This document shows, piece by piece, positions 16,979 through 61,520 of a stretch of DNA of 64,000 nucleotides (positions are counted from its first letter, which is position 1; every line of letters begins with the position of its first letter). Position numbers and translations under genes: made by a program. A model generated the notes under the pieces. It was not told the origin of the DNA. It did not search any database and worked only from the letters and a program-made list of their open reading frames with translations. The stretch covers positions 800,001 through 864,000 of the forward strand of contig CM000431.1 in assembly GCA_000165345.1 (NCBI GenBank), given 5' to 3'.

Positions 16979-19138
<2,160 letters not shown>

Positions 19139-21728: not shown

Positions 21729-24620
21729 ATGAACGACGCAGAGGAAGATTGGCAAGATCCGCTTTTGGATGTGAGCATTCCATATAATTCGCTTGCACCC
21801 TATGCACTGACTTGCTATCAACTTGATGAAGATCTTCAGGATTTAATATCATTTTTTTCAACTTTGAGCAAGGAAGATTTAGCTCATCATATAAACGAAA
21901 CGTCTTTTGAGTCCAGCTTACGTTTATTGAAGGATGTTCTACTCGTTCAACCAAACAAATTAGTCAGTTCTAATGGGAATGCACTCGCATATGAATTACT
22001 TGAAAGCAAGGAAGACCTTCAGAGAGACTTCAGTTCTTCAAGTGCTGATATTCTTACAAAGTTTCAAAAGAATGATTCAGCTGGAACTGACCTTTCAATA
22101 TTGGATTCTCCTAATGGTATTATTAGAGTGGCAAATGAAACCAAAGTTAGAACAGATATAGTGGGTGGCGACCCGACTTTAAATAATTCTCAATTTCTTG
22201 AGGGATCTATTCAAGCTTCTAATTCTTCATACAGAATTGTGAGTAATGGTGAAGAAAATAAATTTGTAGATCAATCCAAAATGCTAATGGCATTTTTCAA
22301 GGAGTTGGAGGCTGCCAAACTTTTTGAGAATTTGGAATCATTTTCTGGAATATTAGCAGCACATTCTATTCACTTGAAAATTCTTCAAGATGTTGTTACT
22401 GACATCTTCAGAGTAGAAGAGCTTAGATTAAGACTTTGTTCACAGCTTGCAGCCTTATTAAACCCCATTATTTTATCAAGATTGGAATCTTACAATAATT
22501 CACTATTCTTCACTGCATTTACAATTCCTTCAAACGAAGGCTCATCCATTGATTTAAGAGAAAGTCATTGCTCATTACCTAATCCAATCATTTATAAATG
22601 GCCTTCAAACTCTGTTTGCATTGAAGATTATAAACTGTATATGTCAAGGCTTCCTCTTTTATGTTTTTCTGAAGTATTTAAATTGGGTTCATGTATCAGT
22701 CAATCGTTAAAAGTTCATGATAATTATCAAAAAACAATAGAAACTGATGCTGAGCAGACTGTAGATTTCTCTGAAATCTATCCAGATGAATGCTCTATAA
22801 GAATAAAATCCTTAGACTCGATTTATAATCAAAGAAATGGCTCTCAGATAGACCATCCCTTGTTTCATGTAGATTATGGTTCTAATAGCAACTTGGATGC
22901 TAATAGTAATTTTGTTCATCATCCTTTATGTACTGATATTGCTCAGGATTCCAAAGATATTGAAAGAGACGTTATATTTGTTAATGGCAAGGAGTATAGC
23001 GGAGCTAATGGCGGCTACGAGAGAATTGTTTATATTGTTGCAAACCTGATTGAAAACTATTGGCTGAAATCTTCCAATGGATTTGAGGACTCTAATTTAA
23101 ATACTGAGACTAAAGAAGGTACCCTACAAGGCAGCAGTAAGACTGTTGAACTTTGCAGCGGATCAATCTTCAACTTAGTTAACAATGATCCAAACGAAAA
23201 TTATGATGAGAGAAACACTGAATCTGTCGTAATTGCAACAATACTACTTCATGTATTGAGTAGAACATTTTCAGGCGGTGCATGCTTTGACAAAGTCTCC
23301 CTTGTATATAATAAGCCAGACTGTATTGTGATTTCTCCAAATAGTAAGCGAGCAAGACCACTAGAGATGCTTATACTCCCAAATGTTGCTCTAATGCTTT
23401 CGACATTGAGGTTTAGACTATATGAAGTTATGGAGAATTTAACTGTAAATACGCAACCCTGCTTTCTGGTTGATACACATGTGGTGTCTAGACTTGTTCC
23501 TGACTCTGGGTTGATTGAATTGCTTCCATTTTATTCCTTTCACATTCTATCAAGAACTCCAGTAAGTAAGATCCCATCATCCATATACCAACACCTATTA
23601 AGGTGCGCAAATTTATTTCTTGCTAAGAATATTCTCTTTACAAGAGTCAAAATCGCAAAGAAAGTGGAAGCAGGTACGCAATCGGTGCCTCCAGTAGAGA
23701 TAGAATGCGAAAAACTACAACTAAATGTTGATCAACCATCTGAAGTTCGTGAAGAACCGTGCGGAAAATGTAACACGGCTCAAAATGATTCAAAGGAAAG
23801 TGATCAAAATGTTGCAGAGGCTTTTATTTCCAATAGTAAATGCCTAGACACTGATAAGATCATTGAAGTCACTGGAGACGACTTAACAATAATAACCCCA
23901 GGCGAAGCAGCTTTATTTAGAATGTTCACAAATATACAAGACAAGGAAGCTATACATAACAGCAGTATAGAAAACATTAACTTGAGTAACTCTGAAGTCT
24001 CCACTAATAAAGAGGCTGCGGAAGATAGAGATCGCTATGATTGTGATTCTAATGAATCTATTAAAGAAGAAATAAGGGATAGTGATCCTAGAATATCCAA
24101 TTCGGAATCAAAACCTCAACATACAGTTGTAGAACAAGATTTCCCGATGACGGTAGTGCCTGATAGATCTGTTCAAATTCACGCCTCAGTAAATTCCCAC
24201 CTTGAAGAACAAGAAGGTAATTCTTATTCAAATTACAACACTTTCAGAACTCAACAACAAAGCAATTCAGGAGAAAATCAAATTTCTGATAACACTAAGA
24301 ATTCTTCGTACTCTGATTATATCTCAACAGAAAGCAAAGAAAATAGTGAGAAAAGCTGTATTAGTTTTGGCCTGCAATCCGGTAAAAACATTCCTAAACT
24401 GTATCTTTGCCATAATGTTGAAATTCCAGATTCATGTTCTTTGACATCAAACATTTATATTGCATCGTCTGAAAATTCGTCTAATCTTGCAAATGACTTA
24501 TGTAACTTGCCAGCTGATTCAATTGGAGCCATTGACCAAGAAAATCAACAGCTTGCACTTTTCTTACAATCCAAGAGAGTTATTTCTCAATTTGGAATAT
24601 TTAACATTATTAATACTTGA
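21729..24620 (+). CDS. Hypothetical protein (963 aa)
   Basis: Long ORF with an S/N-rich C-terminal third. I recognise no domain. Confidence 0.5.
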   Translation: MNDAEEDWQDPLLDVSIPYNSLAPYALTCYQLDEDLQDLISFFSTLSKEDLAHHINETSFESSLRLLKDVLLVQPNKLVSSNGNALAYELLESKEDLQRDFSSSSADILTKFQKNDSAGTDLSILDSPNGIIRVANETKVRTDIVGGDPTLNNSQFLEGSIQASNSSYRIVSNGEENKFVDQSKMLMAFFKELEAAKLFENLESFSGILAAHSIHLKILQDVVTDIFRVEELRLRLCSQLAALLNPIILSRLESYNNSLFFTAFTIPSNEGSSIDLRESHCSLPNPIIYKWPSNSVCIEDYKLYMSRLPLLCFSEVFKLGSCISQSLKVHDNYQKTIETDAEQTVDFSEIYPDECSIRIKSLDSIYNQRNGSQIDHPLFHVDYGSNSNLDANSNFVHHPLCTDIAQDSKDIERDVIFVNGKEYSGANGGYERIVYIVANLIENYWLKSSNGFEDSNLNTETKEGTLQGSSKTVELCSGSIFNLVNNDPNENYDERNTESVVIATILLHVLSRTFSGGACFDKVSLVYNKPDCIVISPNSKRARPLEMLILPNVALMLSTLRFRLYEVMENLTVNTQPCFLVDTHVVSRLVPDSGLIELLPFYSFHILSRTPVSKIPSSIYQHLLRCANLFLAKNILFTRVKIAKKVEAGTQSVPPVEIECEKLQLNVDQPSEVREEPCGKCNTAQNDSKESDQNVAEAFISNSKCLDTDKIIEVTGDDLTIITPGEAALFRMFTNIQDKEAIHNSSIENINLSNSEVSTNKEAAEDRDRYDCDSNESIKEEIRDSDPRISNSESKPQHTVVEQDFPMTVVPDRSVQIHASVNSHLEEQEGNSYSNYNTFRTQQQSNSGENQISDNTKNSSYSDYISTESKENSEKSCISFGLQSGKNIPKLYLCHNVEIPDSCSLTSNIYIASSENSSNLANDLCNLPADSIGAIDQENQQLALFLQSKRVISQFGIFNIINT

Positions 24621-25644
24621 CAAGTCAGCCAATACCTTTTTTACTTATTACCTTTTCATTAATGTGTTGTTCATTTAATCCAACTTATGATTGTGTAAAA
24701 CTTATTGCCGTGATTTTTATTGAATTTCAGGATCATTGGTGATTAATTTTAATACACTGATAATAATATATAAAAATTACACTTAGTATTCTATAATAAG
24801 CGTTCTTTTTATTTTGTACAAATTTCATTCCTAAAATTAAAAATCCATCAACTATGATTATGTTATTTTCTTTAGCATGGCAACTTTCGTTTATTCCAAA
24901 GCTATTAATTCTATAATCTTAAGTAGAGCTAGACTTTAAATCTATATAACTCTAAAACTTGCTTCAGGTGAAGATAGTGAGTTGAAACCTGTAACTTCAA
25001 CAGTCCATAACAAATTAATTAGTGATTATAACTTATTGCAGAGTTATTAATCGATTGAAGAGAATTCATTCTAAGCCTCTAATTTCGTTTTCTTTCCTCC
25101 TTCCAAATGTTACCCAAATGAATTAATATTCAACGAATGAGAAGTACATGTTTAAGTTTTTAATAGTAAAACACGTCACAACTCAATATTTAGAAACAAA
25201 CACACCAGAGAAAACCTGAACATGAAGATAAAACAATTAGTTTTAAACATTACTATCACGAAACACTTTTTTACAAAAAAAAATCGTCAATTTCGACGTT
25301 AGTCCGCAGGTGAAACAAAATTCGAGGTGGAGGCCTTTCTAATTATTTGTAAAGCGACATAATTCACTCCAGAATGAAAAACAAAAATTTAAGTATCAAA
25401 TAATTAAATCAAAAAGATGCCATCCAAACCAGTTTCTCTCTGGAAGAATGAAAGGTTATTTCTTAATACCCATCTGAATCCCAAATCAATGACTAATTAT
25501 AGAACTGTGTTAAAATAGCATAAAATAATTTCCCGAATCCCCTTGAGCTAGTTCAAATGCATGCAAGGGAGTACAATTTATTAATTTATAGTTAGAAACA
25601 GCCAAATTAAGACTGTTAACCATAATTCTTCAAAGTTCCAAAAA

Positions 25645-31375: not shown

Positions 31376-32902
31376 CTACTGAATTGAACATGCACTTGTA
31401 GGATTCCATGAACACTCTCTGCAGCTAAAGAAACTTTTTTCGTAGCTTTCTGCACTGTCTACAGAGATTGTATCATCCATTGTCCTTGATCTAGTAGATC
31501 TCTTGAATCCAGTACCATTATCTTTTATTGTAATGATAACCATGTTGTTTGAAAGGCGACTTGTTGATTTAGATGGGTTGAAAGGCGAAATGTTAGAGTT
31601 ACTTAGTTTCTCTAGCTTGTTATTGAACTGAGTTCTGGAGTCAAAGTCAGAATCATTGAAAGAGAATCCCAGACTCGCTGCTTCCCCGTTTAAGACTCTC
31701 TGTAGGTCTTCCACTAGAGGTGTTACTGTTATTGACCTTCTTAGCTGGTTCCCGACACGAATAAACCTTAAAATTTTGGGCTCAGTAAATCTACCGGAAA
31801 TCCTTTCAAAAGAAATAGTTTCAGAAGCACCTCCAACCTCTGAATCTTTGTTTTCTGAGTATTCACCACCAGCGCAAACTTTTACGGTCCTGGAAAAGTC
31901 TGAAACTGTATTCCTGCAATTTGTCTTGGCTTCGTACACTGTTGTATCATTGCTGTGAGCAAATTGACCAGCTGTACCAGATACTGTTGTGGAAAGCACG
32001 CTTGAATTTAAGGCATCATTAGAACTCGTCAGTTCGCCATTCTTATACTTTAGAGACTGGTGTGTATAGTAAACATCTGAGAAAGGAATATGTTCAGATT
32101 CTTGATTATTGCCGTTCTCCGACGTATTACTTATAGATGAGGTATATTTTGCATTATCTCTTGCCCACATTCTTAATCTCTCTTGTTGCAAAACTGCCAC
32201 ATTTAGTTGGCTTAAGTAATTATCTTCAGTGTCCCTCTCGTAAATTCTGCGGCTTGTGTTTCCTTCATCATCAAACCTACCAGGTTCTTGTTTATTTTCG
32301 ACCTTAGCATAGCCTCCATCTTCCAAGATGTCAGCGTCTTGAATATCTTCAATATTGCTACTCAAACTTTCCACTCTTTTATTAATTTCACTTAGTTTCG
32401 CGTTCATCTGGGCAAAGTCGTGCGATAACCCACAATTGTTCTTTTCTCTATTTTCACTACTAGTTGGTGAGGCAGACTTAGATCTACAGTTCTCTGACTT
32501 TTGGAGGCAGTAATCACCAGCATCCTGGCCATTAGACACTGTTTTCTTATTCGGAAAGTTAAATTCGCTTATAGTATCGGAATCTTTGTTTTTTAGGCGT
32601 CCTGCAAGCCTCTTAATTATATCAATACTCGGAATATTCTTTCTTGCACTAGTTAAAGCTGAAAATGTTTCCGAGTCTGTGATCGAATTTGAATCAACAT
32701 TGATACTATCTTCTGTGATTGCTAATTTTGAGTCAGAAATATTGTTATTCTTCAGAGCAACTCCTTCTAGATTTGAAAAATCGTTGCTAGTTTTTATCAA
32801 TAATTGGTCAACCAGCCTAGTTGCCTTCCTCATAATTTCACTAGAGGACGGTGAAAAGGTTTTCTCAGATATTGTTGTTTCGATCATGATTACTAGGTTC
32901 AA
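31376..32902 (-). CDS. Hypothetical S/N-rich protein (508 aa)
   Basis: Long ORF. I recognise no domain. Confidence 0.45.
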   Translation of the reverse strand: MNLVIMIETTISEKTFSPSSSEIMRKATRLVDQLLIKTSNDFSNLEGVALKNNNISDSKLAITEDSINVDSNSITDSETFSALTSARKNIPSIDIIKRLAGRLKNKDSDTISEFNFPNKKTVSNGQDAGDYCLQKSENCRSKSASPTSSENREKNNCGLSHDFAQMNAKLSEINKRVESLSSNIEDIQDADILEDGGYAKVENKQEPGRFDDEGNTSRRIYERDTEDNYLSQLNVAVLQQERLRMWARDNAKYTSSISNTSENGNNQESEHIPFSDVYYTHQSLKYKNGELTSSNDALNSSVLSTTVSGTAGQFAHSNDTTVYEAKTNCRNTVSDFSRTVKVCAGGEYSENKDSEVGGASETISFERISGRFTEPKILRFIRVGNQLRRSITVTPLVEDLQRVLNGEAASLGFSFNDSDFDSRTQFNNKLEKLSNSNISPFNPSKSTSRLSNNMVIITIKDNGTGFKRSTRSRTMDDTISVDSAESYEKSFFSCRECSWNPTSACSIQ

Positions 32903-36477: not shown

Positions 36478-39400
36478 TTAAGATGTAGAGTATTTTGGAA
36501 TAACATGCAATGTAGCCTGTACTGAGAATGATTCTGGAATGTATTTACCGCTATTTGCAATATTCTCTTCATCCTTTGAAGTATCTGGTTGCTCCTCAAC
36601 CTTTGAAATTTGTGAAGATGTGAGTGAAGTTGCTGAGGCTAAACGTAAATCGGTTCTGTAAGTGACACTCAATTCTACCTCACTAGAAATCTGATAGATT
36701 GAAACTCCTGTTGTGAATATGGATGCAGCAGAAACCTTACATGCAATTAATCTGAATTGGTTATTAACATATGCAAGATTTACAACAATTTTCTTGTTGG
36801 TAGAACATACACAGCCTCCACTTAATGTACCAGTAGCATTAATCTTTCCTGGGACATTTTCCAAAGTGAAGCTAGAACCGTTTGTTTTTAATCTTAATTG
36901 CGGTTTTCCTGTTTGACCTGAGAATATTAAATCCTTACCACAAGTCATCTCAATACTCAAACTTTCATTGGGTGAAAATGGCATACCGGAAGATAAAATT
37001 GCATTCTTAGAAACTACAGTACCCATAGGATATAAATTGCTTGCGTTTAAATTTGGAGTGTACAATGTTCTTTTGAGACCATATACTATTGCTGCAGTGG
37101 TCTGACTTGAATCAATAAATACTTGACCAAATGTCTTAGCAGCATTGAAATGTTGGTTGTATGGTAGTTTACATAATAATGCAGACTTTCCTACTACGTA
37201 GCTGTGGAAATAGACATGCAAGTCGGATCCATCTACGAAGAATGTAATATAGTATTTACTACCAGGTTGGAATTCAGCTTCATCTGGTACTTGTGATGAA
37301 CAGCTTGAGAATGTTCCAGCTTCACCAGAATATAAAGAACTGAAGAATGAAATATATTTCCTGGCAATAACTAGTGTGTAAACAACTGATCCGTTGTATA
37401 ATAGTACAATTGAATGTAAGAAACCTGGGAAATTGGGGAAAGTCTTTGCTACCTCATCCTTAACATAATTTGGGTAACGTGATTTGAAAACAAGAGAAAA
37501 GTGATTTGGATGTAATGAAGTAGAGCATAAATTCTCAATTGAACTAGCTGGTAAATATACTCCTGGTGTAGAGAAATATCCATATGTTGGATTTTGTGCA
37601 TTGCACAAATTATAAGCTAGTACCATAGATGCTTTTGCTGTAGTAGATCCATATTTAATATATTGCCAAGGAGCTGGGTTACTACTATCTGTTTTGACAT
37701 ATTCTATAACAAAACCATCTAGCTGAGATACTAATACCTGATTAAAGTTATCCTTGTTTTCAAGTGCTAATAATACCTTCCACTGGCCATCCAAATGATA
37801 ACCAATAGCATTACCGACAAATTGAATAATAAATTCTTTAGAACCAAAGTTATACACGCTGTAAGTATCTGTTGAACGTTCAAATCTTGTAGTAAACTTG
37901 ATTGTAACACTTCCAGACCACAATGTAGATGTAGATGAAAATTCAAGTTGTGCTACAATAGTACCATCTTCTCTTTTGAAAGAGAGTGAAAATGTATTCT
38001 TTTGGAATGAATAAAATCTGATAAAGAACTTAGCATCATTGTTAACCGGCTTATTACCAGGCATGTAAACCTTCGAAGTGGTACATACACCATAAATGCT
38101 TAATGTGCAGCTGTTATCGCCAGATCTTGGAGCATAGAATTCCTTAGAAACTGGGAACCATGTATTAACATTGTTACTTAAAGAGTAACTGTATGGACTC
38201 TTTACTAATAATTCAGGGACAATAGAGTTAATTGGCTCATACTTAGTGAAGTCACGATTATATGCAGTTTCACCCCATGCTGAAATTACAGAAACAAGAT
38301 TTCTTCTCAACATGGCAAATTTACCTGAGCCATATGGATTTTCAATTAATAAATTAATTGCCGAATCTTTGAACCCAATACCAATTCTATATTTAGATCC
38401 TTCTTCTAAATTCACGCTCGAGGGGATTGGGGCACCAACATGGCCATTATTTCTAGTAATGGCAAGGGGATTATGGATTGATAGACCCAATTGATCTTCT
38501 GTAATAAAGAATTGAAGTATAGTACGTCCATTACTTGCCTTTAAATTGAAAACTTGAATAGCATTTTCAATTGGAATACCAATATTAAAGGCTTGTTCGA
38601 GATTAGAAGATGGCTTTTCAACAGTACCTGTAATCATAATAGAGTAACCATTTGTTAAACGATTTGTACTCATATTAATCAAGGAAGAACAATTGTCGAG
38701 ACTGGTTGAAACAGACTTTCTTGCATCACATGGAGAATGGAATGTTAAGTCATCGTCCTTTTTAATATTATCGGAATTGGTAGAGTATTTTTCACTGGTG
38801 TATTCCAAGGCAACAGAACCACCACCAAATACTGGAAATGTTGCAACCCGGACACTGTTTCCAGACATATTTTTATGGAAGATAAATTTAAGCTTCTTAT
38901 TTAAAGATGTAGATGGAACACTTCCGAGTAAGAGACCGCAAATGGAAGCATATATTTTAGATTGATCTGATGAAAGAAGGACAGAAAGACCTTCATGCAA
39001 GATTCTTTCCATACAACTTGGAGGGATCTTTGCATAAATAATATCTTGTGTATTAACATTTCTCATGCTAAATTTACCAGTTGAAATAACCGTAAAGGCA
39101 AATTGATCAGAGTTGTTATCTGATGACTTCACATAGAAAGTGAATGGGAATATGACTGATGAAGACTTGACTGTCAAGTAAGTGCCCTTGACAAAACCTG
39201 AGCCATCCATGTGAACAATCTGAGATGCATTACACTCTCCATTTGTTGCCAAATAACAGTTTGCAGCTTGTTGCTGTGTTCTAGAAGTCGAACTACCTCC
39301 ACTGATACCTTCATATCCTTCGGCAGGATAATCATTAGAAAGTGTGTATTTAGAACTTCCTGAATAGACATTATCCTTTACTGGCCTGAATCTGGTAATT

Positions 39401-41001
39401 GAAATGGATCCGAGATTTAAATCACAGAATAACAAGACTTTGTTTCCAATATATCCAGATACTCCTAATTTGTTATTATTTGAAAGACCAACAATTATTT
39501 TTATTTCATTTTTTTGATTAAACACATTATTACCAGATAAATAGACAGAACAAGCGTCTGTTAAGATACCACTTTCTGAGAATAACACTAAAGAAACTGA
39601 ATTTACAGATAAGAATACTGCTGCTCTCATATTTTCTGCGTCACCCATTGCAATTGCTCCAAAGAGCTCTTTTTGTGAAATGTTTGCATAATCATTAAAG
39701 TAATTACCAGAGTCATAAAGAGATTGGATTTCTACTTTTTGACCGGGAGATAATGGGTTTTGTAGTCTAAATTCAGAACCATAACAAGACGTTTCTCCAA
39801 CTCTACATTTGTATCTACCAACTGCAGAACCCATTAAGGTTTGCTCTGGAATACTTAGCATTACTGAAGTTGTAAACCAAACTGTGGTTCTAATCTTATT
39901 TATTTGAGCACCTTTAATCTCGGTTGATGCGAAACAGGTATCACCAATACAGATAAGTAAATGTCCGTCTGTGAAAAAATAACCCAAATGTACGATATCT
40001 CCAGAATTCAAATGATTTTTTAATGAATTTGCATCGAAATTTACCTCTTTATTTTCATTTTTATGAGCATTCTGGATAAGGAATTTGTATTTGTTGTTAC
40101 CAGAGTAGGTAATGCTTATTGTTAATTGAATTTTTGAATCGTTGTATTTAATGAACGTGTGCTTTACTTTGTTAGAGGTTATCTCTCCTTGATTAATTAC
40201 AATCTTAACACCATCCTCGAAAATGTTTCCACCTGGATACACGACTTCAGTACCTCTTCTCAAAGAGAATGGGCCAGAATATACTTGTGAGCTTGGATTA
40301 CCAGGCATAGTGTGTTGAACAAAAGTTTTGGGAGCGGTAAGTGTCATAGTTTGTTCGAAGTGAATATTATAATCCATTGGACCAGTGAGTGGAACTATCG
40401 AGCTAATAGCTTTGTTCAAAATATAGAGACTTCCTACTTCGTAGTATTTCCCATCCTTATGCTTGAATAAAAATGTCAAATAACTATTGTTATAGTAAAG
40501 ATAATAGTCGAAGTCGTCTCCTGACTCGACTCTGAAATTAGAAGGGGTTCTATCAATGCTTATACCTTTACTAATACGTTTAGAATCAACGAAATTCTTT
40601 GTATCAACCTCACCAACGAGACCAAATCCAATAGTCTCCTTTGTAATAACCATATCAATGAAGGGCTTCTTGTTGTCATCAATAATTCTCAAGACAAGTT
40701 TGGTTTGTTCGACTGGAATCCCATTAAATTTACTAGCAAATAAATTGATAGAATCTGGAATTTTACCTCTTAATCTTAATGTATAACCACTTGAGAGCTT
40801 GTTTGAACACAAACCAATTACAGAGCCACCTCTGCACGATGTTGATTGGCATGAGAAACCCAAACTACAACTTTCTCTTGGAACAGATGCAGCTGGAGGA
40901 ATTTCGGTTTCTGATGATGCCGAAACAGAAGCGCATCCCAGAAGGGTGTTGAGAAACAACCCTGCTAGGAATACTCCAAAGTATTTCTGGAGCCTATTCA
41001 T
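36478..41001 (-). CDS. Large secreted protein (1507 aa) with an N-terminal signal peptide and repeated beta-rich, lectin/ConA-like-looking modules
   Basis: Signal peptide MNRLQKYFGVFLAGLFLNTLLGCASVSA. There is no C-terminal transmembrane segment. The protein is rich in G/S/T/Y/N with scattered Cys. Blocks of F.I....N....F.L.F...DG recur. Confidence 0.55.
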   Translation of the reverse strand: MNRLQKYFGVFLAGLFLNTLLGCASVSASSETEIPPAASVPRESCSLGFSCQSTSCRGGSVIGLCSNKLSSGYTLRLRGKIPDSINLFASKFNGIPVEQTKLVLRIIDDNKKPFIDMVITKETIGFGLVGEVDTKNFVDSKRISKGISIDRTPSNFRVESGDDFDYYLYYNNSYLTFLFKHKDGKYYEVGSLYILNKAISSIVPLTGPMDYNIHFEQTMTLTAPKTFVQHTMPGNPSSQVYSGPFSLRRGTEVVYPGGNIFEDGVKIVINQGEITSNKVKHTFIKYNDSKIQLTISITYSGNNKYKFLIQNAHKNENKEVNFDANSLKNHLNSGDIVHLGYFFTDGHLLICIGDTCFASTEIKGAQINKIRTTVWFTTSVMLSIPEQTLMGSAVGRYKCRVGETSCYGSEFRLQNPLSPGQKVEIQSLYDSGNYFNDYANISQKELFGAIAMGDAENMRAAVFLSVNSVSLVLFSESGILTDACSVYLSGNNVFNQKNEIKIIVGLSNNNKLGVSGYIGNKVLLFCDLNLGSISITRFRPVKDNVYSGSSKYTLSNDYPAEGYEGISGGSSTSRTQQQAANCYLATNGECNASQIVHMDGSGFVKGTYLTVKSSSVIFPFTFYVKSSDNNSDQFAFTVISTGKFSMRNVNTQDIIYAKIPPSCMERILHEGLSVLLSSDQSKIYASICGLLLGSVPSTSLNKKLKFIFHKNMSGNSVRVATFPVFGGGSVALEYTSEKYSTNSDNIKKDDDLTFHSPCDARKSVSTSLDNCSSLINMSTNRLTNGYSIMITGTVEKPSSNLEQAFNIGIPIENAIQVFNLKASNGRTILQFFITEDQLGLSIHNPLAITRNNGHVGAPIPSSVNLEEGSKYRIGIGFKDSAINLLIENPYGSGKFAMLRRNLVSVISAWGETAYNRDFTKYEPINSIVPELLVKSPYSYSLSNNVNTWFPVSKEFYAPRSGDNSCTLSIYGVCTTSKVYMPGNKPVNNDAKFFIRFYSFQKNTFSLSFKREDGTIVAQLEFSSTSTLWSGSVTIKFTTRFERSTDTYSVYNFGSKEFIIQFVGNAIGYHLDGQWKVLLALENKDNFNQVLVSQLDGFVIEYVKTDSSNPAPWQYIKYGSTTAKASMVLAYNLCNAQNPTYGYFSTPGVYLPASSIENLCSTSLHPNHFSLVFKSRYPNYVKDEVAKTFPNFPGFLHSIVLLYNGSVVYTLVIARKYISFFSSLYSGEAGTFSSCSSQVPDEAEFQPGSKYYITFFVDGSDLHVYFHSYVVGKSALLCKLPYNQHFNAAKTFGQVFIDSSQTTAAIVYGLKRTLYTPNLNASNLYPMGTVVSKNAILSSGMPFSPNESLSIEMTCGKDLIFSGQTGKPQLRLKTNGSSFTLENVPGKINATGTLSGGCVCSTNKKIVVNLAYVNNQFRLIACKVSAASIFTTGVSIYQISSEVELSVTYRTDLRLASATSLTSSQISKVEEQPDTSKDEENIANSGKYIPESFSVQATLHVIPKYSTS

Positions 41002-42272
41002 TTTGATCTAATTCTGGATGAAGACAACTTATACACTAAACCTGTTCTTTTGTACACTTCTTGAATACTAGATTTCTTCAGTTTAATAAAAACAAGAATA
41101 TTTGTTGCCTTTGCCAATTATTCTCTTACGCAGTTGCTCTGCGACTAACTGAAGACTAATCACACCAACAGTCAACTTTCAATTCGCAACCAGATTATGC
41201 ACCCCTGATATTGCATGCATTATGCGGAGACAAGACATACTCCCGCATTACTCATTTCTATACGTACAAATGGGAGGTTAATTAGTAAACGTAACAAAAC
41301 TTGCTAATTAAGTCAATTATTTGTTCACTAACGTCTTTATTTAAATTGGAGTTTTTTTGAGAAAATTGAGTCAAAAGAAAATTTATTAATGCATATGGCG
41401 GTAAGATTTGTACTAGGAAAAAAACACACGAAAATGAATAATTTTTTAAAAAATTACTTAAAATTCTTGTATAATCAAAATGAATATTAATTAGTGAATT
41501 TATATTTATATTTTAAAGTGTTTTAGTTTAATCAGAAAATGCTTATCTGAATTCATACGTTTTAATTTCTTCCAACTAAAGATAACACCAATTAACGATT
41601 AAGTTTTAATTATATACAAAAAATTGAATAGATCTGCTAGCATATTTAAAATAAATTACCTGCTTATTAGGATTTGATTCTCAAGTGCCATTTGTGGGTT
41701 CAAGAAGAGATGGATCATTTATAGCTGCATTAATATTAACAAATATTCAGTTAGTTTTTCTTAAAATTAACGTAATTATTGAATTGCGTTGTTAGAAACC
41801 ATAGCTTGCCGCCAAATAGTGATGATTAATTAAATCTCAAATTTTAAAAGAAGGAAAAACTTAATAGCTAAGATTTCATGTTCAAAAAAGGAGAATTTAA
41901 TTAGATTCTGTAATAAATTGTGTTAATTCTAAGATGAACAAATTTTGCATATCTATATAACCATCAATTTAGAAGAAAGTAACATTTGAAATCAAACTGA
42001 TTTATTAGCCAAAATATTTTGCATCTAGTCTTTATATATATAATGAGGGGGTTAAACTAAAATGTTCAAATCAAAATTTTTGTTTTTTTTTATTTAATCA
42101 ATTTTTTAAACTTTAAATGGAGTTTTGGCGGTAACTATTCTATACGCGATTATCGAAAGTCAAAGTGACAGAAAAGAAATTATAAATAGGTGGGAATAAA
42201 TTAAAGATTATTAAAAAAAGGTATTCAACTAGAAAATTATAAAGGTTTGAATTGGCTGTCTAAAAACAAACA

Positions 42273-49149: not shown

Positions 49150-52100
49150 GTGCAAAATTTATGTAATACTTGTTTGGAAGAAAATTTATTTCAGATCTTT
49201 TTCAGTATGGATCTATCTATATCCCCAAATTCTCTACTAAAGGAATTAATTGCAAACAAGGAATTCGTTCATATTGTCTCTACAGATGTATTGGCAGTTA
49301 CTGATAATTGTCTAGACTTTATTTGGGACGTTGGGATTAGTGGTCCCAGAGGTTCGGAAAGTAAAATATTTAATTCTAATAAACATTTGGTAGGTTTAAT
49401 AAGAAGAGGTCTTTCTTTTGGAATTAAACTTTCATTAGAAAAAGCTAAGAAATCAAAGAAGTGGTTTGAATATGATCCCAATAAAATTAAAGTTTGGATT
49501 CTCAAGCGAGGAATGGAAAAGTTTGGGGATTTACTATTTGATTTTGAAAAAAGATTGGATCAGATAACTCCTATATTAGGAGAAAACTTAAAGGGATTGA
49601 AAATTGTGGCATTGGAAAAGCTAGACGGAGAAAACTCCCAAATCTCTTACTTTGATACCACTGATCAATGGGTTATTGGTTCTAAGAATGTAACCATACT
49701 TTGTAGAGATATTAATGATTTAGAAAGTACTTTATATGCAGAAAGTAGATACGAATCTGTGAAAGTTAGTGCATACTCTTGGTTTCGTACACTGGAACAG
49801 TTCAAAGCTTGTTCTAAAGGGGATTTTGTAGCAAAAATTAATGATCTCAAGAAACTACTTATGAACAATACTTTGCTTTGCGAGACTATTGGAAATTCCA
49901 ATAGACAACATATAATTAATTATTTAGATATCACCACCCCTCAACTCTACTTCACTGGGTTGGTTTCAAAAGAAAACAAACGTGACAGCTGTTATAATCC
50001 TGTGTCTCTGATGCAATTTTTGGATCCATTTTTTTTCAAGTACACTGCCAAATTCGTTGATTTGCCTTCTCAATCCATCGTTTCTGAATCTTTAGAAAAA
50101 CGGATTTTTGGGAATATCTCAATTAGTTTCAGCCCAATCTGTTCTTTTAACAACCAAAGCTTTGACTTCCAAAGTATAGATGAACTTTGTAACTATTTAT
50201 CAGTTATACAAAGCATTATACTAACTCTAAGAACAAACACTGAAGGGATAGTGTTATATCTTATTAATTCTGGCCAAAAGTTGGATCAAGATATTGTTTT
50301 GTCTGCATTTAAGATAAAATCCCTGCAATTTTCCACTCTAAGACTTATTCGAGAAAATTTAAAGAACTCAATCATAAAGAATTTTGCAATTAATGGACTT
50401 GATGAATATAAAGAGGCAATGACACAACCTTACAAAAATCATAATTCTATCATGAAATACTCCATAGATAACTTTTGGTTCTCAGTATATAAATACTTAA
50501 TCATTTCAGTCCAAAATAATGCTGAAAACTTCTTCAATGTAATCGACAAAAACTTTAAGATTATTCGCAAACAAATTTCCAACGTTTATAATATCTTTGA
50601 CATTGAAATTGTTAATCAAATTGAGAATGAATTTGTTTTCTTCAAGCAATTACTATTATATTCTTCCATTTACTTAATAGATCAAATTATTTACTTAAAC
50701 TTGAATAACACTAAAACGGATAGTGTACAACTCTCCAGATACTTTTTTGACTCATTTTCGAGCTTTATTTCCGATATAAAGTCTCAAATATCCTGTTCCA
50801 GAAAATTAACTGGTATACCTCCGAGTATTTGCTCTACTTGTAATGTAAATTCATCCGGGTCAGTCATAGTTTCGCCTAGTCACTTTGGAAGTATTCCATC
50901 TGGATCTACTATTGAGTTTATGGTTCCTCCTTTTAACTGGTCTTGGAAAGAAATCAAGGATATGCTTTCTTCGGACTTCTCTCTTAGTCATGATACTTGG
51001 ATTCTCAACAAAGATGAATACTATGTAACTTTAGACCAAAAAGATTCCAGTGAAAGTTTTTTGTTTCCTTTTTCAAAGACAAAATATCATCTTTTTGTTA
51101 ATTTGAGACATGTATTCGATGATTGTGTATCACGAGAAAGAAACCAACTTTATAGTTACTATAAAATATTCGTTCCTAATAAGCATAAATTGTCTACAGA
51201 TAGTAATAATGAGGTTATCTTTACTAGAACTGAAAATAGTATCAAGTTGTCTACATTTAGATCCAGTTCAGTTAGACTATTCTGGAAAATGATCGGGAAA
51301 CTAGATTCTGCTACCAAGACAACTATTATAAATGAAATTGGAACTAAAGGATACAATCAGCTAAACCAAAACCAACAACTTGTAAGAAAATTAGAGACTC
51401 TCCCATTGAAGTTTCCTTGGGTTAATAAAAGTTGTACATATATCTTTCCTTCTGGTTACGCTATTAATATAAGAGACTTTGAGCACTTGCTATATGCAAT
51501 TTTTGGGTCTAGTGATTTTAAATACGTAGTAAATTCATTTTATAACTGTGAAACAAACCAAGACTTAAGCGAAACCGTTAATATTAAAGAAAGCCCAACT
51601 GGTAATGGATTAAAACTTGAAACCACTTTTGTTTTACCATGTGGAATCCCTGGTTCAGGCAAATCATTCATGCTCAAGTCATTTATCAAAAAACAAATGT
51701 CGATACGAAAAGATTCATATTATGTTTCAGCGTTAACTTCAGGAGAACATGTAACTAAATTTGATATGGAAGATGAATCCATTTACTCGCTGATTGTCTC
51801 GTCAAATAATAAGTCGAACTCTTCCAAAGATAAACGATTTGACTTGATTTTTTATGTATCCAAAGATGGATGCACAAGAAGTATATTGAATGGGTTTAAA
51901 TGGAACTATAACGCATTATTTTCCGAGAAAATTCCAAAAACATACACTAATTATAGTTTACCAGCTGATTCTTCCGAAGATTCATTGTCTGAAACAGAGT
52001 TTCGGAAATTGTCCAAAAAGTCCAAGTTTTGTATGAACTTTATAATTGAGTCTTTCATAAACCTTTGCTCAGAAATAGTCAAAGGTAATTACGAGAAAGG

Positions 52101-53817
52101 TTCAACTAAAGATGAGAGCTTTCCTGAGTGGGTTAAACATTTGAAAAGTGAATATAATTTTACCAGGAACTTAAGAATTTTAATTCTTGTGGATATGAAC
52201 CATACTCCGGATGCATTTGTCGGAATTAATGAAGATTTTAGTAGTAAATTTAAATTAACTGAAATCACCTTATATAAAGTAATTGTATTATTTATCTCCC
52301 AAGGCTTTATAAAAAGTTCTAGAAGGCCAAAAAAATGGAGATTTATCATGAGTAAAGAAGAAGTGATAATATCTATTTTAAAAATGATTAAAAGAAAAAA
52401 TCACAGTACCCTTAAGGGACTTTCTAGGAAAAGTGTAAATGTTTTACTTCATTTCCTTACTTTATACTCTCAAGTGATTAAACTTGTAAATGAAAATGGA
52501 CAGGCAATTAATTCAGTATTATCAAAGAATACCTTTAAATCATTGGGTTTTAATGGAGTTATTGAAATAAAAAATGACTATACTGAATTCAAATCTATTT
52601 TAAAAGAGAATAGTGAAATTTTTGCATCACTAAAATCGGATCTAACACAGATATTAAACAATAATATAGACCTTCAGAATACAAAAAATAGTGAGAAGAT
52701 TGTCTCTAGATTTATGGATAATCTTGAAATTCTTTCAAATTCAATCAATTCAATCCCAGATTCTTTAAATCATTTTGCTGTTAACTCATTTTATTCGTTT
52801 ATTTATTCTACATGCAATAATATCCCCTTCAAGGAATCAGAAAATAACTCAACAAAACTCTATTATAGTTTGGGAAATAATTTGATAATTAAACCATTTA
52901 ATTTGAATGTCAATCCAAAAGGAGATTTGGGTGATTACTTGTCCCGAATTCGGGGAGAGCATAACCTTACAGCAATTACTTTTGAAAACCATAAATCAAG
53001 TATAGAAGCAATTACTAAGATTTGGAATGATCATAAAGAATCACTGGAAGACACCATAAATCATGATTCTGATTCTAAAGAAGATGTTGATCACAAAGTT
53101 ATAAAACTAGAAGATATTCCAAATGATAAAAAGCATGTTACTTGCTGCTTTTTTGGACATACTACTGATTCAAACACTAAAGATAAGTCAAATGTTGAAT
53201 TTTTGCTTATTAGCAAAACCATTTCCAATTTACAAGTTTTGCTTTCTTTGCCTTTTATTGGCAGAAGTTATGACTTCCAAGTTTCATATTTGATTTTTAT
53301 TCACGGTTGGAAATTGGCATTCTTGACTGTTTCTCCTATGTCAAAACTATTTGAAATTCCATCAAATGAGACGAATTATGATATTATAATTAATGAAAAA
53401 CTTCCTAATAATTCAGTGGAAAATGAAAGTGTTAAGGAATTTAGTTCAAATCCTGAGATTGACGAATTTGAAGGAATTGGTAATAAGACAAGTTTGTTGC
53501 TAACATCCTTATTACCTTTTAGAGAAAATGGACATTCTCATATTACTTTAATTTCTGAAAAATTTAATCCTGTAATCTCAAACGTTGCAATTAACCTTTT
53601 AGGTGAAGACTTTTCAAAATTATCAAGCCTGGATGCGAATGAATATGGGGTACAGACTTTGGAAGTTCAAGTAAATGAACAGCCATTGGAGGGAATTCTG
53701 AAAAAAGGACTAAGTGAAGATGACTCTAAACTGGATCCTGTGAAAACTCTAAGAATTTTAGCAATTAGACTTTGGGATAAGAGGATAATGCTAAAAGGAG
53801 ATTTAGGATATATGTGA
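49150..53817 (+). CDS. Trl1-type (fungal/plant-like) tRNA ligase: RNA ligase/adenylyltransferase, polynucleotide kinase and 2H cyclic phosphodiesterase domains in order
   Basis: Motif I/Ia EKLDGENSQISYFDTTDQWVIGSKNVT matches yeast Trl1 [33 protein letters not shown] and FFFKYTAKF resemble motifs IV/V (EGFVI, FFFKYKF). The P-loop GIPGSGKSF lies at about aa 830. Two HxT motifs (HVTC...GHTT and HITL) lie in the C-terminal ~300 aa. The true start may be the ATG at 49207. Confidence 0.7.
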   Translation: MQNLCNTCLEENLFQIFFSMDLSISPNSLLKELIANKEFVHIVSTDVLAVTDNCLDFIWDVGISGPRGSESKIFNSNKHLVGLIRRGLSFGIKLSLEKAKKSKKWFEYDPNKIKVWILKRGMEKFGDLLFDFEKRLDQITPILGENLKGLKIVALEKLDGENSQISYFDTTDQWVIGSKNVTILCRDINDLESTLYAESRYESVKVSAYSWFRTLEQFKACSKGDFVAKINDLKKLLMNNTLLCETIGNSNRQHIINYLDITTPQLYFTGLVSKENKRDSCYNPVSLMQFLDPFFFKYTAKFVDLPSQSIVSESLEKRIFGNISISFSPICSFNNQSFDFQSIDELCNYLSVIQSIILTLRTNTEGIVLYLINSGQKLDQDIVLSAFKIKSLQFSTLRLIRENLKNSIIKNFAINGLDEYKEAMTQPYKNHNSIMKYSIDNFWFSVYKYLIISVQNNAENFFNVIDKNFKIIRKQISNVYNIFDIEIVNQIENEFVFFKQLLLYSSIYLIDQIIYLNLNNTKTDSVQLSRYFFDSFSSFISDIKSQISCSRKLTGIPPSICSTCNVNSSGSVIVSPSHFGSIPSGSTIEFMVPPFNWSWKEIKDMLSSDFSLSHDTWILNKDEYYVTLDQKDSSESFLFPFSKTKYHLFVNLRHVFDDCVSRERNQLYSYYKIFVPNKHKLSTDSNNEVIFTRTENSIKLSTFRSSSVRLFWKMIGKLDSATKTTIINEIGTKGYNQLNQNQQLVRKLETLPLKFPWVNKSCTYIFPSGYAINIRDFEHLLYAIFGSSDFKYVVNSFYNCETNQDLSETVNIKESPTGNGLKLETTFVLPCGIPGSGKSFMLKSFIKKQMSIRKDSYYVSALTSGEHVTKFDMEDESIYSLIVSSNNKSNSSKDKRFDLIFYVSKDGCTRSILNGFKWNYNALFSEKIPKTYTNYSLPADSSEDSLSETEFRKLSKKSKFCMNFIIESFINLCSEIVKGNYEKGSTKDESFPEWVKHLKSEYNFTRNLRILILVDMNHTPDAFVGINEDFSSKFKLTEITLYKVIVLFISQGFIKSSRRPKKWRFIMSKEEVIISILKMIKRKNHSTLKGLSRKSVNVLLHFLTLYSQVIKLVNENGQAINSVLSKNTFKSLGFNGVIEIKNDYTEFKSILKENSEIFASLKSDLTQILNNNIDLQNTKNSEKIVSRFMDNLEILSNSINSIPDSLNHFAVNSFYSFIYSTCNNIPFKESENNSTKLYYSLGNNLIIKPFNLNVNPKGDLGDYLSRIRGEHNLTAITFENHKSSIEAITKIWNDHKESLEDTINHDSDSKEDVDHKVIKLEDIPNDKKHVTCCFFGHTTDSNTKDKSNVEFLLISKTISNLQVLLSLPFIGRSYDFQVSYLIFIHGWKLAFLTVSPMSKLFEIPSNETNYDIIINEKLPNNSVENESVKEFSSNPEIDEFEGIGNKTSLLLTSLLPFRENGHSHITLISEKFNPVISNVAINLLGEDFSKLSSLDANEYGVQTLEVQVNEQPLEGILKKGLSEDDSKLDPVKTLRILAIRLWDKRIMLKGDLGYM

Positions 53818-61480: not shown

Positions 61481-61520
61481 GGATTTTTGCATGCAAATTG
61501 CAAACTGCATGCAAAAATCC
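61481..61520. promoter_or_regulatory. 40-nt palindrome carrying two GCATGCA (G-box/AP2-like) motifs, upstream of the MAM-CuAO gene
   Basis: GGATTTTTGCATGCA-AATTGCAAAC-TGCATGCAAAAATCC has perfect 15-nt inverted arms. It lies about 430 bp upstream of the CuAO ATG. Confidence 0.5.

What the first reader, a model, noticed from the sequence alone, without database searches (positions are those of the whole stretch)
36478..41001. 1507-aa secreted protein built from repeated beta-rich (lectin/ConA-like?) modules
The signal peptide, the absence of a transmembrane segment or GPI signal, and the G/S/T/Y/N-rich composition suggest a large secreted or glycosylated protein. Hydrophobic and aromatic patterns recur roughly every 180-200 aa, for example ...FxIxxxNxxxxFxLxFxxxDG... 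This hints at tandem beta-sandwich domains of galectin, LamG or ConA type, which could serve as a wall, adhesin or lectin protein. A GCATGCA G-box lies about 180 bp upstream (around 41200).
Basis: inference. Interest (0 to 1): 0.5.

Follow-up and report, generated by a model that had tools for sequence, protein, structure and literature searches.

The report
Secreted eight-module galectin-like Cryptosporidium protein
This is cgd3_3370 of Cryptosporidium parvum, an abundant, so far uncharacterised secreted sporozoite/oocyst protein, and it is predicted to be a chain of eight galectin-like beta-sandwich modules that lack the classical sugar-binding residues, which gives a vaccine-candidate protein its first structural assignment.

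Summary
The ORF is real (36478..41001, minus strand, 1507 aa). It is 100% identical to C. parvum Iowa II cgd3_3370 (XP_626888.1), annotated as hypothetical. It has a signal peptide and no transmembrane or GPI-like segment.

Sequence tools see no domain: Pfam, PDB sequence search and self-BLASTP all found nothing. AlphaFold2 models of both halves are all-beta, in eight blocks spaced 158-202 aa apart.

- **Repeats:** Profile-profile comparison shows M1~M5 (E 2e-11). It also supports a duplicated four-module unit and links M7 to galectins (E 3.4e-4).
- **Binding site:** The canonical galectin sugar-binding residues are absent.
- **Distribution:** The family is restricted to the genus Cryptosporidium. 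It evolves faster than its neighbours, mainly in M2 and M3.
- **Promoter:** A 29-nt block invariant in six species contains TGCATGCA. This is the ApiAP2 "AP2_1" site, not a "G-box".

The glycosylation idea and the motif label are not. Lectin or adhesin function remains an inference.

The parts
36478..41001 (-). Complete CDS of cgd3_3370 (1507 aa plus stop). It is a single exon.
   Evidence: ORF listing. It is 100% identical to C. parvum Iowa II XP_626888.1 / EAK89002.1 / UniProt Q5CUC6 and corresponds to cpbgf_3003370. The gene order cgd3_3360 (DPH), cgd3_3370, cgd3_3380 (DEAD-box) is confirmed.
40918..41001 (-). Signal peptide (residues 1-28, with predicted cleavage after VSA)
   Evidence: The hydrophobic core has KD 1.87 and is preceded by R/K residues. 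It is modelled as a helix at residues 2-23. NCBI names some orthologues 'signal peptide-containing protein'.
40801..40917 (-). Cys-rich N-terminal cap (residues 29-67; C45, C51, C56, C65)
   Evidence: The cysteines are invariant in the intestinal clade and nearly invariant across the genus. pLDDT is low here.
40342..40800 (-). Module M1 (residues 68-220), a galectin-like beta-sandwich
   Evidence: Nine predicted strands. M1 is homologous to M5: hhalign 97.3%, E 2e-11, 175 columns.
39847..40284 (-). Module M2 (residues 240-385), a beta-sandwich and the fastest-evolving module
   Evidence: Ten strands, with core pLDDT 62-84. dN/dS is 0.94 between C. parvum and C. hominis. The in-register match to M6 scores 28.4, above all 112 controls.
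39334..39810 (-). Module M3 (residues 398-556), a beta-sandwich preceded by the C399/C406 pair
   Evidence: Eleven strands, with most 10-residue blocks at pLDDT 63-90 (two blocks lower). dN/dS is 0.79. The in-register match to M7 is weak, at score 19.1.
38836..39258 (-). Module M4 (residues 582-722), a beta-sandwich preceded by the C582/C590 pair
   Evidence: Eleven strands, with pLDDT about 64-77. The in-register match to M8 scores 25.4.
38167..38730 (-). Module M5 (residues 758-945), a beta-sandwich and a paralogue of M1
   Evidence: Ten strands. M1-M5 has E 2e-11. M5-M7 scores 29.0 over 178 columns in register.
37687..38124 (-). Module M6 (residues 960-1105), a beta-sandwich and the best-modelled module of the C-terminal half
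   Evidence: Twelve strands, with pLDDT 69-89. It is preceded by the C965/C973 pair, which is invariant across the genus.
37072..37605 (-). Module M7 (residues 1133-1310), a galectin-like module with a sequence-level link to galectins
   Evidence: hhalign against a validated six-galectin profile gives score 30.8, E 3.4e-4 and 131 columns, against a control maximum of 18.1. The canonical ligand residues are replaced by T, P, F, A, S and V.
36652..37029 (-). Module M8 (residues 1325-1450), a beta-sandwich and the most conserved module
   Evidence: Ten strands. dN/dS is 0.08. Identity to C. parvum is 98% in C. hominis and 68% in C. bovis, and the invariant fraction of 0.26 is the highest of any module.
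36481..36651 (-). Conserved acidic C-terminal tail (residues 1451-1507; ...EEQPDTSKDEE...YIPESF...HVIPKY), not hydrophobic
   Evidence: dN/dS is 0.10. Many columns are invariant across the genus. pLDDT is low, below 50. KD is 0.13.
41191..41219 (-). Invariant 29-nt promoter block TGCATGCAATATCAGGGGTGCATAATCTG (-218..-190). It contains the AP2_1 palindrome TGCATGCA (41212-41219) and a second TGCAT.
   Evidence: The block is identical in C. parvum, C. hominis, C. meleagridis, C. ubiquitum, C. canis and C. bovis, at -213 to -221 from the ATG. It is unique in the window.
41127..41165 (-). Second conserved upstream block (-164..-126), with the inverted repeat CGCAG-N5-CTGCG
   Evidence: Invariant runs of 9, 18 and 7 nt across the six species, against a background of about 2-6 invariant columns per 30. 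The predicted hairpin is weak and inconsistent between species.

Best explanation
This is cgd3_3370 of Cryptosporidium parvum, a real and highly expressed protein found only in this genus. It enters the secretory pathway through an N-terminal signal peptide. It has no membrane anchor of its own.

The mature protein is predicted to be a string of eight disulfide-containing beta-sandwich modules of about 125-190 aa each. Their fold is the galectin / ConA-like jelly roll. The eight modules arose from the duplication of a four-module unit (M1-M4 giving M5-M8).

The classical beta-galactoside-binding residues of galectins are not retained. The modules are therefore best seen as galectin-like binding modules with non-canonical sites. 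These sites could bind a different glycan or a protein partner, as the galectin-like domains of Toxoplasma MIC1 and M2AP do.

Most likely mechanism (inferred). The protein is made for the sporozoite/oocyst stage under a conserved AP2_1-containing promoter. It is stored in or released from the sporozoite secretory system, and it acts outside the cell as a multivalent binding scaffold or adhesin. The conserved C-terminal end (M7, M8 and the tail) docks it to a parasite partner, because it has no anchor of its own. The fast-evolving N-terminal modules (M2, M3) are the exposed face that meets the host or the immune system.

What is shown: gene identity, expression, signal peptide, all-beta eight-module architecture, galectin-like fold, internal duplication, absence of canonical ligand residues, genus restriction, the gradient of evolutionary rate, and the conserved promoter block.

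What is inferred: ligand type, localisation, polarity of function, and which factor binds the promoter.
For: Identity and expression:
- The protein is 100% identical to XP_626888.1.
- Its intensity is about 3e7 in an oocyst proteome, against 1.5-2.6e5 for its two neighbours.
- It was detected with 29 peptides and 162 PSMs in another dataset.
- It is among the 20 most abundant proteins of an oocyst-wall-enriched fraction, and it is present in sporozoite extracellular-vesicle proteomes.

Architecture:
- AF2 models of residues 1-760 and 745-1507 are almost entirely strand, in 4+4 blocks.
- Module starts are spaced 158-202 aa apart.

Fold:
- Foldseek gives multi-domain alignments to neurexin LNS2-6 (921 columns, E 9.6e-11), to laminin LG, and to both CRDs of Gal-8, Gal-9 and Tl-gal.
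- M7 matches the galectin profile at E 3.4e-4, above all 48 controls.

Duplication:
- M1-M5 has E 2e-11. M2-M6, M4-M8 and M5-M7 are at or above the control maximum.
- The collinear 4+4 pairing is the best of 105 perfect matchings (rank-sum P 0.0035).

Other points:
- Non-canonical site: there is no H.N.R or W..E.[RK] anywhere in the protein, and the M7 alignment shows substitutions at the ligand positions.
- Genus restriction: an exhaustive hmmsearch of 1.84e9 representatives returned only Cryptosporidium clusters, including C. serpentis at 30% identity and fully collinear.
- Rate gradient: dN/dS is 0.37 for the gene against 0.14-0.22 for its neighbours. It is 0.94 for M2, 0.79 for M3, 0.08 for M8 and 0.10 for the tail.
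- Promoter: a 29-nt invariant block containing TGCATGCA. AP2_1 is bound by cgd2_3490, the orthologue of Plasmodium AP2-Sp, which regulates sporozoite genes.
- Functional relevance: the gene was chosen as one of 11 surface or immunogenic vaccine candidates. [quoted passage not shown]
Against: - The models have only moderate confidence (mean pLDDT 58.6 and 53.2). The alignment holds 12 orthologues, and inter-module orientation is not reliable.
- Pfam finds no galectin, LamG or other domain even at E<=1.
- With the canonical sugar-binding residues absent, carbohydrate binding is unproven.
- I could not access any localisation data (hyperLOPIT or tagging). Presence in a wall-enriched fraction fits a structural role equally well.
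- On the antibody array the gene's fragments were not flagged among the protective antigens.
- The CRISPR result is a pooled-screen statement about a group of genes, not a dedicated knockout of this gene.
- A dN/dS of 0.94 in M2 is compatible with relaxed constraint and does not prove positive selection.
Confidence: 0.6

Rival explanations
1. The protein is a structural component of the oocyst, for example the inner wall, the matrix around the sporozoites or the residual body. The eight beta-sandwich modules would serve as rigid, disulfide-stabilised building blocks or cross-linkers of wall glycoproteins and glycolipids, not as a host-directed adhesin.
For: - It is among the 20 most abundant proteins in an oocyst-wall-enriched proteome, alongside COWP3, 6, 7 and 8.
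- It is very abundant in whole-oocyst proteomes.
- It has 26 cysteines outside the signal peptide, mostly in conserved pairs.
- AP2_1-like motifs also occur upstream of class II COWP genes and of genes that peak at 72 h.
Against: - The same wall fraction also contains clear sporozoite and cytosolic proteins (GP60, HSP70, HSP90, CCp1-3, glucan phosphorylase), so presence does not show that it is a wall constituent.
- The protein is released in sporozoite-derived vesicle preparations.
- Others selected it as a surface or immunogenic candidate.
- It has no COWP-type Cys-rich repeats and no Pfam hit, and it is only 1.8% Cys.
- Fast evolution of M2 and M3 is less expected for a buried structural protein.
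Confidence: 0.22
2. The protein is an escorter or chaperone of the secretory pathway, analogous to Toxoplasma M2AP or the MIC1 galectin-like domain. Its galectin-like modules would bind and stabilise other parasite adhesins (for example the TSP-family, mucin or AGP proteins) on the way to micronemes and the surface. It would have no host ligand of its own.
For: - It lacks the canonical sugar-binding residues.
- It has no membrane anchor, so it must rely on a partner.
- The conserved C-terminal module and tail are suited to docking.
Against: - Eight modules and 165 kDa are far more than known escorters need.
- No sequence homology to M2AP or MIC1 was detectable.
- The high non-synonymous rate in M2 and M3 argues for an exposed face rather than a conserved intra-parasite interface.
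- No partner is known. It was not significantly enriched in the one pull-down-type dataset seen.
Confidence: 0.13
3. The protein is a carbohydrate-active enzyme. One or more ConA-like modules would be a GH16-type or PL7-type glycanase acting on host mucus or parasite polysaccharide.
Against: - Galectins and non-enzymatic lectin folds rank consistently above the enzymes.
- There is no GH16 catalytic E-x-D-x(x)-E motif anywhere in the protein.
- There is no Pfam glycoside hydrolase or lyase hit.
- The matched parts of GH32 and GH43 enzymes are their non-catalytic beta-sandwich domains (established knowledge of those families).
Confidence: 0.03
4. The protein is a largely disordered or mucin-like, heavily glycosylated surface protein, and the apparent periodicity is only a compositional effect.
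For: The composition is rich in S, N, G and T. Mean pLDDT is only 53-59.
Against: - The longest S/T run is 5 residues, and sequons are depleted at 13 against 20.7 expected.
- About 85 beta-strands are predicted, with module cores at pLDDT 70-90.
- Structural matches are strong and family-consistent.
- Module-module profile matches are far above column-shuffled controls.
- Cysteines and hydrophobic cores are conserved down to 30% identity.
Confidence: 0.02

Closest known systems
Tandem-repeat galectins (human galectin-8 and -9, Toxascaris leonina Tl-gal, the porcine adenovirus fibre galectin domains; Pfam PF00337)
   Different: - It has eight modules rather than two.
- It has a signal peptide and paired cysteines, whereas canonical galectins are made in the cytosol without a signal peptide (established knowledge).
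- Identity is 6-14% and there is no Pfam PF00337 hit.
- The H-N-R / N / W-E-R ligand residues are absent.
- The modules are longer, at about 125-190 aa against about 130 aa.
LNS / laminin-G domain arrays (alpha-neurexin-1 LNS2-6, laminin alpha LG1-5)
   Same: These are long extracellular strings of ConA-like beta-sandwiches. They are the top Foldseek hits, with alignments that span many modules (921 columns, E 9.6e-11). They are secreted or extracellular multivalent binding scaffolds.
Apicomplexan galectin-like domains: Toxoplasma gondii MIC1-GLD (2k2s) and M2AP (8j64)
   Different: Those proteins carry a single domain, not eight. No sequence homology to them was detectable. Microneme localisation and a partner are unknown for cgd3_3370.
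Cryptosporidium oocyst wall proteins (COWP1-9) and CpCCp / LCCL-lectin adhesive proteins
   Same: They are co-abundant in the same oocyst and wall proteomes. They are also large, secreted, modular proteins specific to the genus or the phylum.
   Different: cgd3_3370 has no COWP-type Cys-rich repeats and no LCCL, discoidin or ricin domains (no Pfam hit). Its fold class is different.

Membership tests
Galectins (Pfam PF00337, Gal-bind_lectin) | Galectin CRD fold (two-sheet beta-sandwich of about 130 aa) | tested here: met
Galectins (Pfam PF00337, Gal-bind_lectin) | Significant match to the family sequence profile | tested here: not met
   Pfam hmmscan of the whole protein returned 0 families at E<=1. 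Only M7 reaches hhalign E 3.4e-4 (38% probability) against a six-galectin profile. The other seven modules stay within control range or only just above it (M3 20.3, M8 19.1; control maximum 18.1).
Galectins (Pfam PF00337, Gal-bind_lectin) | Conserved beta-galactoside-binding residues (H-x-N-x-R, N, W-x-x-E-x-R) | tested here: not met
   There is no H.N.R, H.NPR, W..E.[RK] or WG.E anywhere in the protein. In the M7-galectin alignment, Gal-3 H158, N160, R162, W181, E184 and R186 align to T, P, F, A, S and V.
Galectins (Pfam PF00337, Gal-bind_lectin) | Cytosolic synthesis without a signal peptide (established knowledge of the family) | tested here: not met
   A clear N-terminal signal peptide is present.
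Galectins (Pfam PF00337, Gal-bind_lectin) | Binding of beta-galactosides | not testable with these tools
   This needs recombinant modules tested on glycan arrays or lactose columns.
ConA-like lectin/glucanase fold superfamily | Jelly-roll beta-sandwich that matches several member families | tested here: met
   The hits, in order, are galectins, then GH16, CBM66, legume-lectin-like, ERGIC-53/VIP36/Emp47, PL7, SPRY and LG/LNS. Each module has 9-12 strands.
Laminin G / LNS domains (Pfam Laminin_G_1/2/3) | Match to the family sequence profile | tested here: not met
   There is no Pfam hit at E<=1. The similarity is at fold level only.
GH16 glycoside hydrolases | Catalytic motif E-[ILV]-D-[IVAF]-[VILMF]0-1-E on the concave sheet | tested here: not met
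   A regular-expression search found no occurrence. There is no Pfam GH16 hit.
Apicomplexan microneme galectin-like-domain proteins (TgMIC1, TgM2AP) | Sequence homology to MIC1 or M2AP | tested here: not met
   An exhaustive profile search with the C-terminal half returned only Cryptosporidium orthologues. Caveat: the N-terminal half was not searched exhaustively.
Apicomplexan microneme galectin-like-domain proteins (TgMIC1, TgM2AP) | Microneme localisation and complex formation with a transmembrane adhesin | not tested
   The spatial-proteomics paper (Guerin 2023) is not held in the library. No tagging data were found.
Mucin-like glycoproteins of Cryptosporidium (GP900, GP40/15, mucins) | Long Ser/Thr-rich tracts for O-glycosylation | tested here: not met
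   The longest S/T run is 5 residues, and N-glycosylation sequons are depleted.
COWP oocyst wall proteins | Arrays of Cys-rich type I/II repeats | tested here: not met
   The protein is 1.8% Cys, with 27 cysteines spread as isolated pairs. There is no Pfam hit.

The most novel reading that the evidence does not exclude
cgd3_3370 would be a lectin or adhesin specific to the genus Cryptosporidium, with eight non-canonical galectin-like sites. It would cross-link parasite surface glycoproteins to the host glycocalyx or mucus. It could account for part of the long-known sugar-inhibitable attachment of sporozoites. Its fast-evolving modules M2 and M3 would contribute to host range, which would fit the report that anthroponotic C. 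parvum TU114 carries a C. hominis-like allele at this locus.
Probability: 0.12. Interest if true: 0.75.

Novelty: new variant of a known kind. Interest (0 to 1): 0.45.

Why it matters
Cryptosporidium is a leading cause of childhood diarrhoea, and there is no vaccine. cgd3_3370 is one of the most abundant oocyst/sporozoite proteins. It was included among 11 'leading vaccine candidates' and falls in the group scored as fitness-conferring. [quoted passage not shown]

Assigning it an eight-fold galectin-like architecture, with a conserved C-terminal end and a variable N-terminal end, makes it experimentally tractable:
- Individual modules can be expressed, tested on glycan arrays and host cells, and used as defined immunogens.
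- The conserved modules are rational antigen choices.
- The variable modules are candidates for host-adaptation studies.

The invariant 29-nt AP2_1-containing promoter block is a ready-made element for dissecting stage-specific transcription. An eight-module galectin-like array, formed by duplicating a four-module unit, would also be an unusually long tandem array for this fold.

Tried and rejected
- **Sequence-level domain searches.** Self-BLASTP (word size 2, E<100) found no internal repeats. Pfam at E<=1 and phmmer against PDB sequences found nothing meaningful. Domain detection at sequence level therefore fails. The repeats appeared only with orthologue profiles, and more clearly once the 30%-identical gastric-clade sequences were added.
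- **AFDB fold search.** The afdb50 library was not available, so I could not look for similar predicted structures in other apicomplexans.
- **Localisation and stage data.** The hyperLOPIT paper is not held. The single-cell atlas paper was not found. The Oberstaller 2013 supplements held as text do not list the gene. The sporozoite phosphoproteome paper has no supplements held.
- **'Dispensable (Akey 2023)'.** This label appears next to cgd3_3370 in the extracted Supplementary Table 2. I rejected it as a row shift. The main text attributes that phenotype to AGP1, and Akey et al. used cgd3_3370 only as a PCR control.
- **'Integral membrane protein'.** This is the UniProt name given to the C. 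meleagridis orthologue. I rejected it because no hydrophobic segment qualifies and the two best candidates are predicted beta-strands.
- **Other readings rejected.** A GH16 enzyme and a mucin-like protein were both rejected. The 'G-box' label was rejected.
- **Upstream hairpin.** An RNA hairpin in the second upstream block is weak and is not predicted consistently across species.
- **Antibody array.** Fragments of the gene are present on the array but are not flagged as associated with protection.

Full report
**1. The observation**

The window is about 30% GC and packed with long intronless ORFs.

The protein is 100% identical to the Cryptosporidium parvum Iowa II hypothetical protein XP_626888.1 / EAK89002.1 (UniProt Q5CUC6). 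It corresponds to cpbgf_3003370 and CPATCC_0034390, that is, cgd3_3370 on chromosome 3. Its neighbours are a diphthamide-synthesis gene and a DEAD-box helicase. A proteomics table lists these as cgd3_3360 and cgd3_3380 on either side of cgd3_3370.

The N-terminus is a typical signal peptide. Outside it, no 19-residue window exceeds a Kyte-Doolittle mean of 1.67, and the C-terminus is not hydrophobic. There is therefore no transmembrane segment and no GPI-like signal. The composition is rich in S, N, G, T and Y, as stated.

**2. The repeats**

Self-BLASTP finds no repeats even at E<100. I noticed that conserved cysteine pairs recur about every 180 aa, so I cut the orthologue alignment into eight slices and compared them as profiles.

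With 13 intestinal-clade orthologues, M1 against M5 already gave 92.7% probability and E 4e-7. I then added two gastric-clade sequences at about 30% identity (C. serpentis KAL7068567.1 and a related Logan assembly). This changed the results as follows:
- M1-M5 rose to 97.3%, E 2e-11, over 175 columns (score 75.6).
- M5-M7 (29.0), M2-M6 (28.4) and M4-M8 (25.4) aligned in register.
- The 112 column-shuffled controls had mean 13.7, sd 2.7 and maximum 26.4.

The collinear pairing M1-M5, M2-M6, M3-M7, M4-M8 is the best of all 105 perfect matchings of the eight modules (rank-sum P 0.0035). This indicates that a four-module unit was duplicated.

Its core motif recurs 3 times against 0.43 expected.

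**3. The fold**

Pfam (0 families at E<=1) and phmmer against PDB sequences see nothing.

I predicted residues 1-760 and 745-1507 with AlphaFold2, using 12-sequence orthologue alignments.
- Mean pLDDT was 58.6 and 53.2, with module cores at 70-90.
- Both models are almost purely beta, in four blocks each, with 9-12 strands per block.
- Block starts are 158-202 aa apart.

Foldseek is an independent method. It aligned the C-terminal half over 921 columns to alpha-neurexin LNS2-6 (E 9.6e-11), to laminin LG arrays, and over 330-365 columns to both CRDs of the tandem-repeat galectins Gal-8, Gal-9 and Tl-gal. Several consecutive modules therefore have this fold, not just one.

At sequence level, I compared each module profile with a profile of six galectins. 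I had first validated those six as PF00337 members. Module 7 scored 30.8 (E 3.4e-4, 131 columns spanning the whole domain), against a control maximum of 18.1. M7 links to M5 and M5 links to M1, so this chain supports the M1/M5/M7 type by sequence as well.

**4. What it is not**

- **Not a canonical galectin.** The galectin ligand signature is absent from the whole protein. In the M7 alignment, Gal-3 H158, N160, R162, W181, E184 and R186 correspond to T, P, F, A, S and V. The F-sheet core motif is retained. Unlike galectins, the protein also has a signal peptide and conserved cysteine pairs.
- **Not a GH16 enzyme.** There is no GH16 catalytic motif.
- **Not mucin-like or heavily glycosylated.** The longest S/T run is 5 residues. 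N-glycosylation sequons are depleted, at 13 against 20.7 expected, with only 28 of 1000 shuffles as low.

It should therefore not be filed as a galectin family member. It is a genus-specific array of galectin-like (ConA-like superfamily) modules with non-canonical surfaces.

**5. Distribution and evolution**

The word-indexed search found orthologues only in Cryptosporidium: C. hominis at 93%, then C. tyzzeri, C. meleagridis, chipmunk genotype, C. ubiquitum and C. canis, down to C. bovis at 54% and C. ryanae at 53%.

The exhaustive hmmsearch of 1.84 billion representatives, using the C-terminal-half profile, returned just two clusters. Both are Cryptosporidium, and no paralogue appeared. The gastric-clade protein is collinear over essentially its full length at 30% identity. 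Synteny (DEAD-box, this gene, DPH) is conserved out to C. bovis.

Between C. parvum and C. hominis:

| Region | dN | dN/dS |
|---|---|---|
| cgd3_3370, whole gene | 0.033 | 0.37 |
| Four flanking genes | 0.010-0.016 | 0.14-0.22 |
| M2 | | 0.94 |
| M3 | | 0.79 |
| M8 | | 0.08 |
| C-terminal tail | | 0.10 |

Across the genus, M8, the tail and M7 have the highest invariant fractions among the modules. A review records this locus as one of three where anthroponotic C. parvum TU114 resembles C. hominis.

**6. Expression and biology from the literature**

- The protein is among the 20 most abundant in an oocyst-wall-enriched proteome.
- It is about 100-fold more intense than its neighbours in a whole-oocyst dataset.
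- It is present in sporozoite extracellular-vesicle proteomes. That paper lists it among proteins without similarity to known families.
- It was detected with 29 peptides in another dataset.
- It was printed on an antigen array but is not flagged as protective.
[quoted passage not shown] - The 'Dispensable' label printed beside it in the extracted supplement is a row shift.

I could not reach any localisation or stage-resolved transcript data.

**7. The upstream motif**

TGCATGCA lies at 41212-41219, which is 211-218 bp upstream of the ATG. In C. parvum this is the AP2_1 ApiAP2 site, and the G-box is G.GGGG.

Aligning the intergenic regions of six species shows two sharp conservation peaks against a poorly conserved background:
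- A 29-nt block, TGCATGCAATATCAGGGGTGCATAATCTG, is invariant at -218..-190, even in C. bovis.
- A second block at -164..-126 contains CGCAG-N5-CTGCG.

The composite 29-nt block is unique in the window. AP2_1 is bound by cgd2_3490, the orthologue of Plasmodium AP2-Sp, which controls sporozoite genes. cgd2_3490 peaks at 72 h in C. parvum. This fits a sporozoite/oocyst-stage product, but binding at this site is an inference.

**8. Mechanism**

*Shown:* the protein is secreted, abundant and genus-restricted. It is a chain of eight beta-sandwich modules with a galectin-like fold that arose by a 4+4 duplication. It has non-canonical putative binding surfaces, a constrained C-terminal end and a fast-evolving N-terminal part.

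*Inferred:* it works outside the parasite as a multivalent binding scaffold or adhesin. It is docked through M7, M8 and the tail to a parasite partner, because it has no anchor of its own. M2 and M3 are exposed to the host or to immunity.

*Rivals:* a structural oocyst component (about 0.22), an M2AP-like or MIC1-like escorter (about 0.13), an enzyme (about 0.03), and a disordered mucin-like protein (effectively refuted).

**9. Verdict**

The novelty is moderate. The fold class is well known, but an eight-module array that is signal-peptide-bearing, non-canonical and genus-specific is a new variant. It gives the first structural handle on a protein of practical interest.

The main weaknesses are the moderate model confidence and the lack of localisation and ligand data.

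Noticed in passing
window 41127-41165 (minus strand; -164..-126 from the cgd3_3370 ATG): A second upstream block is conserved across six Cryptosporidium species: GTGTGATTA-g-TCTTCAGTTAGTCGCAGA-N5-CTGCGTA. The arms of its inverted repeat (CGCAG/CTGCG) are invariant while the 5-nt spacer varies. It could be a palindromic factor site, a transcription-start region or a 5'UTR element. The predicted RNA hairpin is weak and inconsistent between species.
   Followed up: partly
whole window, especially 61488-61513, 25558-25565, 9952-9958 and 10266-10272: GCATGCA (AP2_1) occurs 12 times in the window against 4.1 expected, and none of 100 shuffles reached 12. Two full TGCATGCA palindromes, 18 bp apart, lie about 435-460 bp upstream of the MAM / copper amine oxidase ORF that starts at 61053 on the minus strand.
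   Followed up: no
window 55744-61053 (minus strand): A 1769-aa ORF combines a MAM domain (itself a ConA-like jelly roll; E 2e-14) with a C-terminal copper amine oxidase domain (E 1e-55). This is an unusual fusion for a parasite with a reduced genome.
   Followed up: no
window 49150-53817 (+), 21729-24620 (+), 16979-19138 (-), 31376-32902 (-): Four further large ORFs (1555, 963, 719 and 508 aa) have no Pfam match at E<=1e-5. The 508-aa ORF is conserved in C. hominis at 95.5% identity.
   Followed up: no
window 36478-41001 compared with L001 10001-14524: Synonymous divergence between C. parvum and C. hominis is also higher in cgd3_3370 (dS 0.091) than in its four neighbours (0.069-0.071). This hints at older alleles, introgression or a local difference in mutation rate. 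It may relate to the reported sharing of a C. hominis-like allele by anthroponotic C. parvum TU114.
   Followed up: partly
literature: PMC12368253 Supplementary Table 2: In the text extracted from the PDF, 'Dispensable (Akey et al., 2023)' is printed on the cgd3_3370 row. The main text assigns that phenotype to AGP1, and Akey et al. used cgd3_3370 only as a PCR control. The row annotations appear to be shifted.
   Followed up: yes
orthologue gene models (P0016, P0020): Some public gene models of the orthologue are truncated. C. hominis OLQ17116.1 has 1299 aa. C. serpentis KAL7068567.1 has 1419 aa and lacks about 94 N-terminal residues, on a contig of only 4465 nt. UniProt names the C. meleagridis orthologue 'Integral membrane protein', which the sequence does not support.
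   Followed up: partly
window 61731-63782 (-), 5371-10017 (-), 19628-21157 (-): Ordinary housekeeping context: an Hsp70-family protein (E 6e-264), a 1548-aa protein kinase, and the phenylalanyl-tRNA synthetase alpha subunit.
   Followed up: no
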